This document shows positions 61,201 through 64,000 of a stretch of DNA of 64,000 bases, piece after piece. The position numbers are program-made. Every line of letters starts with the position of its first letter. Positions within the stretch are counted from its first letter, which is position 1. This DNA is from Candidatus Fervidifonticultor sextus (GTDB lineage: Bacteria; Sysuimicrobiota; Sysuimicrobiia; Sysuimicrobiales; Humicultoraceae). Location of the stretch: contig JAVKHQ010000008.1 of assembly GCA_031459875.1 (NCBI GenBank), positions 34,354 to 98,353 on the forward strand. The letters run 5' to 3'.

Positions 61201-64000
61201 AGGGCGAACCAGACTCGGTCGTGGGGCGCGATACTCATCGTCTGGCCACCAGGACCCATCCGGACGGCGTTCAGTCCTGCTCCTCGATGACGGCGTCGTA
61301 GGTCAGCTGGACGCATCCCTTGAGCGTCTGGGCCACCGGGCAGCCGCGCTCCACGACCGACAGGGCCCGCTCGGCCTCGGCGCGCCGTCCCCGGGGGATG
61401 GTGAGGTGGTACGTGACCTTGATGTGCGAGACCTTCATGACCCCCTCGGGCGCCGTGATGGTGCCTTCGGCTTCGGTCCACAGCCGGTCGGGGTAGGACG
61501 GGATTCCGCGCGCCTCCAGCGCGCCCGCCAGGGTCCCTGTGAGTCAGCCGGCCGCCGCCGCGACCAGATAGTCGAGGGTCGACGGCAGCGGCTCCTCGGG
61601 GGTCGTCTTGTAGAAGTCCGCGATGCCGGCGTGCACCCCGAAGTAGATGGGCTGCGGGAAATCGGCGATGTAGGCCCGCCGCTGCGGCCGCTTCTCCTGC
61701 ACCACCCGGACCTTGGACAGATGAACGACGTCGCTCACACCGTCCCCTCCTCCGACGGGCATCCCCGTGATCTGCCACTTGTTCTCCTACGGCAAGCCCC
61801 CGCCTCCTGCCCGCGCCATCACCCCGGCCCCGCGAGGGATCCCCGAGGTCGCACCGAACAGTGGTGCAGGCTCTACGACCTCGAGCCACGAGGAGGCGGG
61901 CGATGAGCGGGAGGACCGTGATCGTCACCGGCGCATCCAGCGGCATCGGCGAAGCCACCGCGCGGGCCTTCGGCCGGGCCGGCGACCGGGTGGTGCTGGC
62001 GGCCCGCCGGGTGGATCGTCTGAACCAACTGGCCGCGGAGCTGCCGGAGAGCCTGGTCGTGCAGGCGGATCTCACCAGGAGCGAGGACGTGGCGCGGGTC
62101 GTGGAATCTGCCCTGGCGCGCTACGGGACGATCGACGTGCTGGTGAACAACGCGGGCCTGGGTCGCTACGACTGGCTCGAGCGCCTGCCCGAGGAGGCCA
62201 TCCAGACCGAGATCCAGGTCAACCTCGTCGCGCCGATCCTCCTGACCCGGGCCGTGCTCCCATCCATGCAGGCGCAGCGGCGCGGGGTCATCATCAACGT
62301 CGGGTCGGTGGCCGGCAAGATCGCCACGCCGACCATGGCGATCTACAACGCGTCGAAGTTCGGATTGGAGGGGTTCAGCGAAGCCCTGCGGCGGGAGGTG
62401 GGCCCCCAGGGCATCCGCGTGTGCGTGATCTATCCCGGGCCGGTGCAGGGGACGGAGTTCGGGGCGAAGCGCTCGGGGCCCCGCCTGGGGGTGACCGGGC
62501 CGCGGTGGCTGCGGACAAGCACGGATCGGGTGGCGCACGCCATCGTGGGACTCGCCGACCGTCCGCGCCCGCGCCTCGTCCTGCCCTGGATCTACCGCGT
62601 CGCCATCGCCGTCAACCTCCTGGTGCCCGGCCTGGTAGACACGCTCGTCTCCCGGGCCGCCCGCCGGGCTCTGGGGCAGAGCGCGGCGCCGGATTGACAA
62701 CCCCTGGGGAACGCGAGAGGATGAAGGCGCCCTCGTAGCTGTCGGGCAGGCGATGGGGAGCAACGGGAGAGGCGGAGACGAGATGGCGAGAGGGTCAGTC
62801 AAGTGGTTCAGTGCTGAGAAAGGCTACGGGTTCATCACCCCAGACGACGGGACCAAGGACCTCTTCGTCCACCACACGGCGATCAAGGCGGAAGGCTTCA
62901 GGACCCTCACCGAAGGTGACAAGGTTGAATACGAGGTCGCCCAGGGGCAGAAGGGTCCGCAGGCCGTCAACGTTCGGAAAGTCTAGGTTCCCGCCGGCCC
63001 CGACCCCCGCTGTCGCCCGTCCGGATCGCCGAACCGGGCCGCGAACTTGACGGCCCGAGGGCCTGTGCGGAGCGGGCGGCGGTAGGCGCACGCCAGGATC
63101 TTCACGGCATCCCGGCGCGAGAAGGTCAACTGCGTCAGTCCCCGATGGCCCGACGGCCCCAGCGTGCCCGTCCTCACCCCGCAGATGGCCTGCAGCGCCT
63201 GGTTCAACCCTTCCATGAGCGGGAGAGGTCCTGCCAGCGCCAGCGACCGCAGCGAGCGCGGAGAGGGGGCAACGGCGCGCGTCCCGCCGAAGGGCGGGGT
63301 GCGTCGGCTGCCCTCCAGGTACCCCCGCACGAAGTCGGGCACGAGCGCACGCGGGATGAACTCGACCGGAACTGAGCCTTCGTTGGGGGCCGCGGCGATC
63401 CCCCACTGGAGGAGCGTTTCGGCCAGGCTGCGATCCCGGATGTAGACCTGGCGCCCCTCAAGACTGCTCTCCACGACCTCGCACCGGACCCGGCCCATGC
63501 CGAGATCCTTCAAGAGCCACTGGACGTGCTCGGTATCCTGCGGATGGATCGCCAGGACCAGGGTGGAGAGCAGGTGCTGGCCGGCCACGCGCCCGCCGGC
63601 GGCGATGTAGCCGAGCCAGTACATTTGCAGGGCGGCGTTGGTCGGCAGGGCGCCGCTGTGGAAGACGTAGGGATTCCGCAGGGCTTCGGGGTGCGAGGTC
63701 GGCCTGAGGACGCCGAGCACCGTCATCGGCGAGAGGCCGTGCTTGACGGCGATTTCCGAGGCCGTCAGGCCGGTCGCTCGATCCTTGTGGACCTCGTAGA
63801 TCGTCCGGGGATCGTGCCGGGTGGGCAGTCGCGGGGAACGTCTCACCTGTTCAGTGTACCACGTCTGGCCTGCGCCTGCCGAGTGAGCGAATCGCGCCGC
63901 CTAAACTGTTACCCGGGGACCTATCGTCGCGCCATGTGATATGTTACCCGAGCAAGCGACTGTCTTCGGCCCCCGGGAGGAATACACCAGTGAGTCCAAC

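What a model noticed while it worked through the whole genome (the two positions that open the first line are those of the whole stretch)
62983..63846. A second domesticated LAGLIDADG protein in bacteria: catalytically dead HTH-LAGLIDADG gene kept across the phylum, which [...]
An unannotated 287-aa gene encodes an N-terminal HTH plus a two-motif LAGLIDADG fold in which the catalytic Asp of both motifs is lost. It is free-standing, mostly single-copy, kept in four families of the phylum with identity falling with taxonomic distance, and often beside a cold-shock protein or CshA helicase gene. It looks like a homing endonuclease turned into a host DNA-binding protein, independently of WhiA.
Evidence so far: In 69 of 94 genomes, 28-96% identity graded by kinship; the 72 database homologs found are unnamed or labelled as this lineage. 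AlphaFold model pLDDT 88; Foldseek top hits I-DmoI, intein endonucleases, bI3 maturase, WhiA; PHROG endonuclease 4645 E 4e-10; ESM Atlas LAGLIDADG clusters 0.95. Motif 1 reads YWLGYIAA[S/C/T/A/G]G and motif 2 FVRGYLEG[S/G/A/T] in 49 of 49 aligned rows: no D at the catalytic position. csp or cshA adjacent in 16 of 28 loci, each DEAD/CSD neighbour read from call 151, plus 2 of 4 in call 142. WhiA TIGR00647 in 0 of 5 phylum genomes. Search 155 found only WhiA and yeast HO.
(Added by a program. Inside this text positions count along the whole contig: contig position 34,354 is position 1 of the stretch shown here. "Call 12" and the like, gene names such as g00115 and contig names such as C1 are that model's own, and its searches are not shown. 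The text may have been shortened before it was handed on; [...] marks where a part breaks off. The agent that wrote the report below was given it as the finding of a first reader that could run no searches.)

Follow-up and report, generated by a model that had tools for sequence, protein, structure and literature searches.

The report
Disarmed homing endonuclease kept by bacteria
A little-studied bacterial phylum keeps, as an ordinary inherited gene, a copy of a selfish DNA-cutting enzyme that has lost its cutting residues and often sits beside RNA-chaperone genes, suggesting it was recruited as a host nucleic-acid-binding protein separately from the known bacterial case, WhiA.

Summary
The gene is real: 287 aa, an N-terminal HTH plus a two-motif LAGLIDADG fold (pLDDT 91; I-DmoI Z 15.9). 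It is in 70 of 94 genomes of the phylum (Sysuimicrobiota), forms one clade that largely tracks taxonomy, and is under purifying selection (median dN/dS 0.23). Its parents are HTH-LAGLIDADG endonucleases, mostly viral, with intact motifs. In the window's protein both metal-binding Asp and both conserved Lys positions are lost, while a hairpin variable in the parents is fixed (E123, S127, Q133, Y135, R137). It is not WhiA, which is found in 0 of 94. Corrections: in family f4, 7 of 30 copies keep the motif-2 Asp and 11 of 19 genomes are multicopy; in f3 the direct neighbour is an RRM gene, with CshA next. A csp or RRM gene adjoins 41 of 81 loci. A leaderless extended -10 promoter is conserved. 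Domestication about 0.85. Best mechanism: sequence-specific DNA-binding regulator of RNA-chaperone genes (0.4); RNA-binding role 0.3. No binding site or expression data found. The scan earlier noted a different dead HTH-LAGLIDADG fused into a phage RNR.

The parts
62983..63846 (-). Gene for the 287-aa HTH + two-motif LAGLIDADG protein (P0001), catalytic residues lost
63703..63819 (-). N-terminal three-helix HTH domain (residues about 10-48)
   Evidence: helices 13-24, 29-36, 40-46; VIA Z 6-7 to GcrA DBD, Tc3, resolvase HTHs; weak HTH profiles
63592..63621 (-). LAGLIDADG motif 1 (residues 76-85); Gly84 where 51 of 51 outgroup proteins have Asp
63436..63486 (-). Domain-1 beta3-beta4 hairpin (residues 121-137) with clade-fixed E123, S127, G131, Q133, Y135, R137; candidate recognition face
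   Evidence: 97-100% conserved in f1-f3 and f4, variable in outgroup; signature in 71 of 72 and 69 of 70 database homologs, 0 of 51 outgroup, 0 of 63 viral ORFs
63304..63333 (-). LAGLIDADG motif 2 (residues 172-181); Ser180 where 94% of the outgroup have Asp; following strand replaced by a Pro-rich loop in the model
63853..63861 (-). Extended -10 element TGGTACACT, 6 nt before the start codon: predicted leaderless transcript
   Evidence: same element 5-8 nt before the start in 43 of 80 loci, 40 of 49 in f1-f3; 23 of 2898 called genes in G000; inferred, no RNA data
62783..62986 (+). Cold-shock protein gene, convergent neighbour
   Evidence: PF00313 E 6.8e-31; within 1.5 kb in 10 of 29 f1 and 12 of 31 f4 loci
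62694..62722 (+). Predicted csp promoter: TTGACA, 17 nt, non-consensus -10 GAGGAT; ACRCGAGA in the spacer
   Evidence: read: ACRCGAGA in 8 of 10 f1 adjacent csp promoters; not shared with f4; not shown to be a binding site

Best explanation
A free-standing HTH-LAGLIDADG homing endonuclease gene of the type common in phages was fixed in the ancestor of four families of this phylum, lost its active site and became a host gene (about 0.85; shown by sequence comparison: origin, residue loss, vertical descent, selection). It most likely works as a monomeric, sequence-specific DNA-binding regulator: the domain-1 hairpin reads a short fixed site, the HTH and the still-basic saddle add affinity, and domain 2 has become a scaffold (inferred). 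It is made from its own leaderless housekeeping-type promoter (inferred), and its likely targets are the cold-shock/RNA-chaperone genes it repeatedly sits beside (inferred from neighbourhood only). The confidence given is for this whole mechanism.
For: Asp84 51 of 51 in outgroup vs 0 of 78; Asp180 94% vs 0 of 47 (f1-f3); Lys153 and Lys265 90% vs lost. Penultimate acidic residues plus neighbouring basic residues are the catalytic set, and their loss is the argument that WhiA is no nuclease (PMC3384342, passages). One clade, SH-aLRT 100; f3 and f4 each one clade, most genera clades. dN/dS median 0.23, max 0.53, 156 within-genus pairs; neighbours 0.11-0.20. Hairpin identity f1-3 vs f4 0.51, outgroup 0.13; domain-2 equivalent 0.24. 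Strand K+R count kept (domain 1 2.6-2.7 vs 3.0; domain 2 2.9-3.6 vs 2.3). csp within 1.5 kb in 22 of 60 f1/f4 loci vs 0.5% by random placement; the single RRM gene of f3 genomes lies within 0.5 kb downstream in 19 of 20 loci; f1 and f4 copies adjoin different csp subclades in three orientations. Parent clusters 71-100% viral; 63 of 63 viral ORFs keep Asp at motif 1, a position the search pattern left free.
Against: No operator found: no motif shared by the adjacent csp promoters of f1 and f4, none upstream of the gene itself. HTH recognition helix is poorly conserved (HTH identity f1-3 vs f4 0.24) and less basic than in the outgroup (1.1-1.2 vs 1.65 K+R). 40 of 81 loci have neither csp nor RRM adjacent, so the link is not obligatory, and kin are not independent (three to six separate arrangements, not 41 events). 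In f1 the genes are convergent, in f3 apparently one operon, neither the classic divergent regulator layout. Not found in f5 (0 of 12), f6, f7, which have csp genes. dN/dS in genus g1 is 0.33-0.44 at distance, about twice its neighbours. 7 of 30 f4 copies keep one Asp.
Confidence: 0.4

Rival explanations
1. Domesticated as an RNA-binding protein: the fixed hairpin binds a structured RNA (csp 5' UTR, tRNA or rRNA) and works with Csp, RRM and DEAD-box chaperones, repeating the DNA-to-RNA switch of the bI3 maturase.
For: Recurrent neighbours are RNA chaperones: Csp, RRM, CshA-like and Ski2-like helicases; a 57-aa Tudor/SH3-like gene was found only directly upstream, 8 of 8 (one is unpublished G016); tRNA-Arg lies within the fetched flanks of 19 of 81 loci; bI3 maturase ranks 3rd in Foldseek; exposed invariant Tyr135; LAGLIDADG motifs occur in the splicing factor OTP51 (PMC9275481, passages).
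Against: HTH core kept in all families; not inside an intron (no Rfam intron in 6 loci scanned); 2 of 5 carriers tested have no group I or group II intron match, so a maturase role is unlikely; the fixed residues are on the face that binds DNA in the parents.
Confidence: 0.3
2. Domesticated as a general factor (RNA-polymerase or nucleoid partner, chromosome or repair role as debated for WhiA); the fixed hairpin is a protein interface and the neighbours reflect shared residence in plastic regions.
For: Its promoter class in G000 is shared with genes I read as mutS, polA, uvrB, dprA, argS (names recalled from the sequences, not from a family scan); phylum has no WhiA; WhiA's LAGLIDADG part may serve protein contacts (PMC3384342); HTH most like GcrA DBD (Z 7.0, tied with others).
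Against: Does not explain repeated placement next to different RNA chaperones; dispensable in f5; saddle remains basic.
Confidence: 0.15
3. A decoy: the dead enzyme still binds the ancestral homing site (in or near csp or tRNA genes) and shields it from incoming active relatives.
For: Fixed recognition face; the phylum is rich in active-type LAGLIDADG domains (PF14528 in 68 of 94 genomes); Asp-intact free-standing relatives lie beside tRNA genes (3 of 3).
Against: Only one of two recognition faces is conserved; parents vary at this face, so one decoy would block few; no csp near 62 viral loci.
Confidence: 0.07
4. Not domesticated: still a mobile nuclease or nickase, or a slowly decaying remnant.
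For: Several contexts and 2-3 copies in f4; one Asp kept in 7 of 30 f4 copies; f1 splits in two on the tree; conserved Glu178, Asp104, Asp114 could form another site.
Against: All four catalytic positions lost in f1-f3; frames intact in nearly all full matches (one split, G035); dN/dS well under 1; none of 62 viral loci is of this type; no recurrent integrase among neighbours and no att-like tRNA duplication.
Confidence: 0.08

Closest known systems
WhiA / DUF199 (TIGR00647; PDB 3hyi, 8dy9)
   Same: Two-motif LAGLIDADG fold without catalytic acidic and basic residues, joined to an HTH, kept as a host gene (VIA Z 13.2, rmsd 3.3 A, 165 aligned).
   Different: HTH is N-terminal and inherited from the parent, not C-terminal; no TIGR00647 match; 15-16% identity; strands stay basic whereas WhiA's N-domain face is described as acidic; confined to one phylum; Asp-intact parents are detectable by sequence.
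Free-standing phage-type HTH-LAGLIDADG endonucleases (PF14528, PHROG 4645)
   Same: Same architecture end to end, same motif helices, D104/H107, WG/Px loop and C-terminal Y..R motif.
   Different: Parents keep D84, D180, K153, K265 and vary at the hairpin; they are mostly viral or sporadic. Their nuclease activity is assumed from motifs, not tested here.
I-DmoI / I-Tsp061I / intein DOD endonucleases
   Same: Best structural match (I-DmoI Z 15.9, rmsd 2.5 A, 168 aligned); motifs align with I-Tsp061I.
   Different: Active, intron- or intein-encoded, no N-terminal HTH.
bI3 maturase; plant OTP51
   Same: LAGLIDADG fold redirected to a host RNA task.
   Different: Organellar, intron-encoded or PPR-fused; here bacterial, free-standing, no cognate intron found.
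CapR of phage satellite PLE
   Same: Promoter-binding repressor proposed to derive from a phage homing endonuclease (PMC8096241, passages).
   Different: T5orf172/GIY-YIG-related, on a mobile element; LAGLIDADG not in that paper.

Membership tests
LAGLIDADG homing endonuclease | [quoted passage not shown] | tested here: met
   first strand of unit 2 is a loop in the model
LAGLIDADG homing endonuclease | Acidic residue at the penultimate position of both motifs | tested here: not met
   Gly84 and Ser180 in P0001; motif 1 never Asp in 81 rows; motif 2 Asp in 7 of 30 f4 rows only. Positions from sequence alignment to the outgroup and I-Tsp061I, not from atomic superposition
LAGLIDADG homing endonuclease | Conserved active-site basic residues | tested here: not met
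   Outgroup Lys at 153 and 265 (90% each) lost; that these two are the catalytic Lys is my inference from position and conservation
LAGLIDADG homing endonuclease | Mobile: in intron/intein or sporadic, horizontally spread | tested here: not met
   Free-standing, 70 of 94 genomes, tree follows taxonomy
LAGLIDADG homing endonuclease | Site-specific DNA cleavage | not testable with these tools
   needs assay
WhiA/DUF199 | Match to TIGR00647 | tested here: not met
WhiA/DUF199 | N-terminal LAGLIDADG, C-terminal HTH | tested here: not met
   HTH at residues 10-48
WhiA/DUF199 | Catalytic residues lost | tested here: met
WhiA/DUF199 | Promoter binding and transcription control | not testable with these tools
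   no operator found by inspection
Group I intron maturase (bI3 type) | Encoded in its cognate intron | tested here: not met
   no intron family at gathering score in 6 loci
Group I intron maturase (bI3 type) | Target intron present wherever the gene is | tested here: inconclusive
   group I match in 3 of 5 carriers (1 over cut-off), group II in 1 of 5; rRNA may be unassembled
Group I intron maturase (bI3 type) | RNA binding and splicing aid | not testable with these tools
   needs assay

The most novel reading that the evidence does not exclude
A phage homing endonuclease was turned, independently of WhiA, into a dedicated factor of the bacterial RNA-chaperone (cold-shock) system, either its transcriptional regulator or an RNA-binding member, using one frozen recognition hairpin; different lineages then coupled it to different small nucleic-acid-binding proteins (Csp, RRM, Tudor/SH3-like, winged HTH).
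Probability: 0.5. Interest if true: 0.82.

Novelty: new variant of a known kind. Interest (0 to 1): 0.66.

Why it matters
WhiA is the one bacterial host protein family derived from a LAGLIDADG endonuclease that my searches returned, and it is too old for its donor to be traced. Here the active-type parent family is still recognisable, so the steps of domestication can be read residue by residue: four catalytic positions lost, one recognition face frozen, the other relaxed. It makes testable whether such enzymes become DNA regulators or RNA binders in bacteria, and offers a candidate regulator for cold-shock genes in an abundant, little-studied soil and hot-spring phylum.

Tried and rejected
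Complex prediction of the protein with the overlapping 57-aa Tudor/SH3-like protein gave no answer (score 0.01): no evidence either way. No RNA holder was listed; laying the one added run gave only short partial matches under 95% identity: no evidence on expression. No match in 50,697 annotated phage records. No divergent copy beside csp or RRM genes in 20 loci, 15 of them from f5. No att-like tRNA duplication in 17 loci. No shared operator by inspection; ACRCGAGA with TTGAC occurs once in G000; non-consensus csp -10 boxes also occur in f5, which lacks the gene. The sigma-70 scan found nothing (it needs a -35 box). The donor is unresolved: the wider tree keeps the family as one clade (98) but flags its join with intein domains as a long-branch meeting. 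A scan of genome contigs with one Asp-intact relative found only a 21-residue match. Whether the intron-like match at G000 C50 lies in 23S rRNA was left open. Literature: 7 searches; no paper on this family seen; 'LAGLIDADG', 'homing', 'WhiA' and 'cold shock' are absent from the main text of two phylum papers (PMC11604079, PMC11962464; term counts); their supplements were not read, and subscription journals are not searched.

Full report
Observation. The window carries an ORF at 63846..62983 (-), 287 aa from GTG, tail to tail with a cold-shock gene. Pfam gives nothing at E<=10, NCBIfam only a weak phage HTH, PHROGs endonuclease 4645 at E 3.8e-10 over residues 74-179. A 96% identical relative is titled Ca. 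Fervidifonticultor; the ESM Atlas cluster is Ca. Sysuimicrobiota, and PMC11604079 lists that genus in this phylum (passage).

Fold. Two AlphaFold runs, one with an alignment that included distant relatives and one with family members only, gave pLDDT 91.0 and 91.7, pTM 0.90 and the same elements: a three-helix HTH (13-46), then two LAGLIDADG units, the second lacking its first strand. Foldseek ranks intein endonucleases, I-Tsp061I, bI3 maturase, I-DmoI and WhiA; VIA gives I-DmoI Z 15.9 (rmsd 2.5 A, 168 aligned), WhiA Z 13.2, and 15 chains at Z>=8, all LAGLIDADG.

Parents and catalytic loss. The search of 1.84 billion representatives returned 74 proteins; the weak tail matches over the full length and reads YWxGFxxADG / FxRGxxDGDG. 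Atlas clusters of this type are 71-100% viral in 8 of the 9 named rows shown, and 63 of 63 ORFs in 62 viral loci keep Asp at motif 1, 60 at motif 2. Against 51 such outgroup proteins (2 of 53 dropped as not matching the domain), position 84 is Asp in 100% of the outgroup and 0 of 78 family rows; position 180 is Asp in 94% of the outgroup, 0 of 47 f1-f3 rows and 23% of 31 f4 rows; Lys153 and Lys265, each 90% in the outgroup, are lost. A review names the penultimate acidic residues and neighbouring basic residues as the catalytic set and uses their loss to explain why WhiA does not cut (PMC3384342, passages). Mapping is by alignment, including to I-Tsp061I; equating Lys153/Lys265 with the catalytic Lys is my inference.

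Host gene. Present in 69 of 94 genomes by protein and 70 of 94 by profile: f1 28/33, f2 1/1, f3 20/22, f4 20/23, f5 0/12, f6 0/1, f7 0/1 (tallies include unpublished G016 and G024). I fetched 81 of the 85 listed matches. On a tree of 78 full-length rows and 51 outgroup rows the family is one clade (SH-aLRT 100), f3 and f4 are clades, f1 falls in two parts, most genera are clades, and f4 shows duplications; no species tree was built, the comparison is with taxonomy labels. dN/dS over 156 within-genus pairs (dS 0.05-1.5, not independent) has median 0.23, maximum 0.53; neighbours have medians 0.11-0.20, and in genus g1 the gene runs about twice as fast as its neighbours. A scan of 185,579 species genomes with f1/f3 patterns gave 30 loci, titled as this lineage, Armatimonadota-like labels or unnamed bacteria; its reach is short. 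WhiA is found in 0 of 94 genomes, controls 4 of 14. An extended -10 element 5-8 nt before the start occurs in 43 of 80 loci (f1 20/28, f2 1/1, f3 19/20, f4 3/31) against 23 of 2898 called genes in G000; most f1 exceptions overlap an upstream gene. By contrast three Asp-intact free-standing relatives in the phylum are sporadic and lie beside tRNA genes.

What was kept. Conservation is lopsided. The domain-1 beta3-beta4 hairpin is 51% identical between f1-f3 and f4 and 13% within the outgroup, with E123, S127, G131, Q133, Y135, R137 at 97-100%; the same strands of domain 2 and the HTH are 24% identical. The polar residues alternate as expected for the exposed face (inference from the strand pattern). 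Strand K+R counts are not reduced. This points to one fixed ligand read by domain 1.

Neighbours. csp lies within 1.5 kb in 10 of 29 f1 and 12 of 31 f4 loci; an RRM gene lies within 0.5 kb downstream in 19 of 20 f3 loci, the last being cut by a contig end; 40 of 81 loci have neither. Random placement in G000 gives 0.5% for csp. RRM genes occur only in f3 (21 of 22) and f7, one per genome, followed by a CshA-like helicase, with a Ski2-like helicase upstream. A 57-aa Tudor/SH3-like gene overlaps the start in four f1 genera (8 of 8 occurrences), and a 76-aa winged-HTH gene, found only in f4, directly precedes it in 8 loci. These are three to six independent arrangements, not 41 events.

Mechanism. 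Shown: origin, loss of the active site, vertical retention, selection, one frozen face. Inferred: nucleic-acid binding, target and partner genes. I put domestication at about 0.85, and within it a DNA-binding regulator of RNA-chaperone genes first (0.4), an RNA-binding role second (0.3), a general factor third (0.15). Against the first: no operator was found, the HTH recognition helix is weakly conserved, and half the loci lack the neighbours. A maturase role is unlikely, as 2 of 5 carriers show no self-splicing intron.

Comparison and novelty. It works like WhiA in being a disarmed LAGLIDADG-HTH host protein but fails WhiA membership on profile and domain order; it fails homing-endonuclease membership on catalytic residues and mobility. 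Other precedents seen: yeast HO (search listing), maturases, OTP51, CapR. Seven searches showed no paper on this family. Verdict: real, a new variant of a known kind, interest 0.66.

Noticed in passing
No att-like duplication. Unexplained.
   Followed up: partly
L116, L117, L118: Asp-intact free-standing LAGLIDADG genes beside tRNA-Asp, tRNA-Lys and tRNA-Leu genes in three genomes.
   Followed up: partly
phylum; L119-L122: PF14528 matches in 68 of 94 genomes, mostly in long frames typical of inteins, including one in what reads as a V-type ATPase subunit: the phylum is intein-rich.
   Followed up: partly
G000:C50:406-707 and 765-1587: Group I intron-like match (48 bits, under cut-off) followed by a degenerate LAGLIDADG frame; host gene not identified.
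   Followed up: no
L076-L084, L094-L098, L141, L142, G000:C7: Conserved csp 5' leader in f4 (GCATCAGC...GTCGGTTGGTAGC), related form in f3 and G000; could form a stem-loop; no Rfam match in the two such loci scanned.
   Followed up: no
csp promoters: Two csp classes have -10 boxes with G or C instead of T at the first position, in families with and without the gene.
   Followed up: no
L100:1874-2101 and relatives: 76-aa winged-HTH family found only in f4 (19 of 23 genomes, 1-5 matches), often near csp genes.
   Followed up: partly
window 61301-61762 (-): OsmC-like protein appears as two ORFs (64 and 55 aa) separated by an in-frame TGA, kept in 7 genomes: possible selenocysteine read-through; family name recalled.
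   Followed up: no
window 63908-63952: TGTTACCCG occurs twice, 36 nt apart, upstream of the divergent gene that starts at 63991; possible regulator site of that gene.
   Followed up: no
L078, L086, L087, L105, L090, L079: A 60-69 aa basic protein (MARPNYSS...) adjoins the gene in 6 f4 loci; no Pfam family.
   Followed up: no
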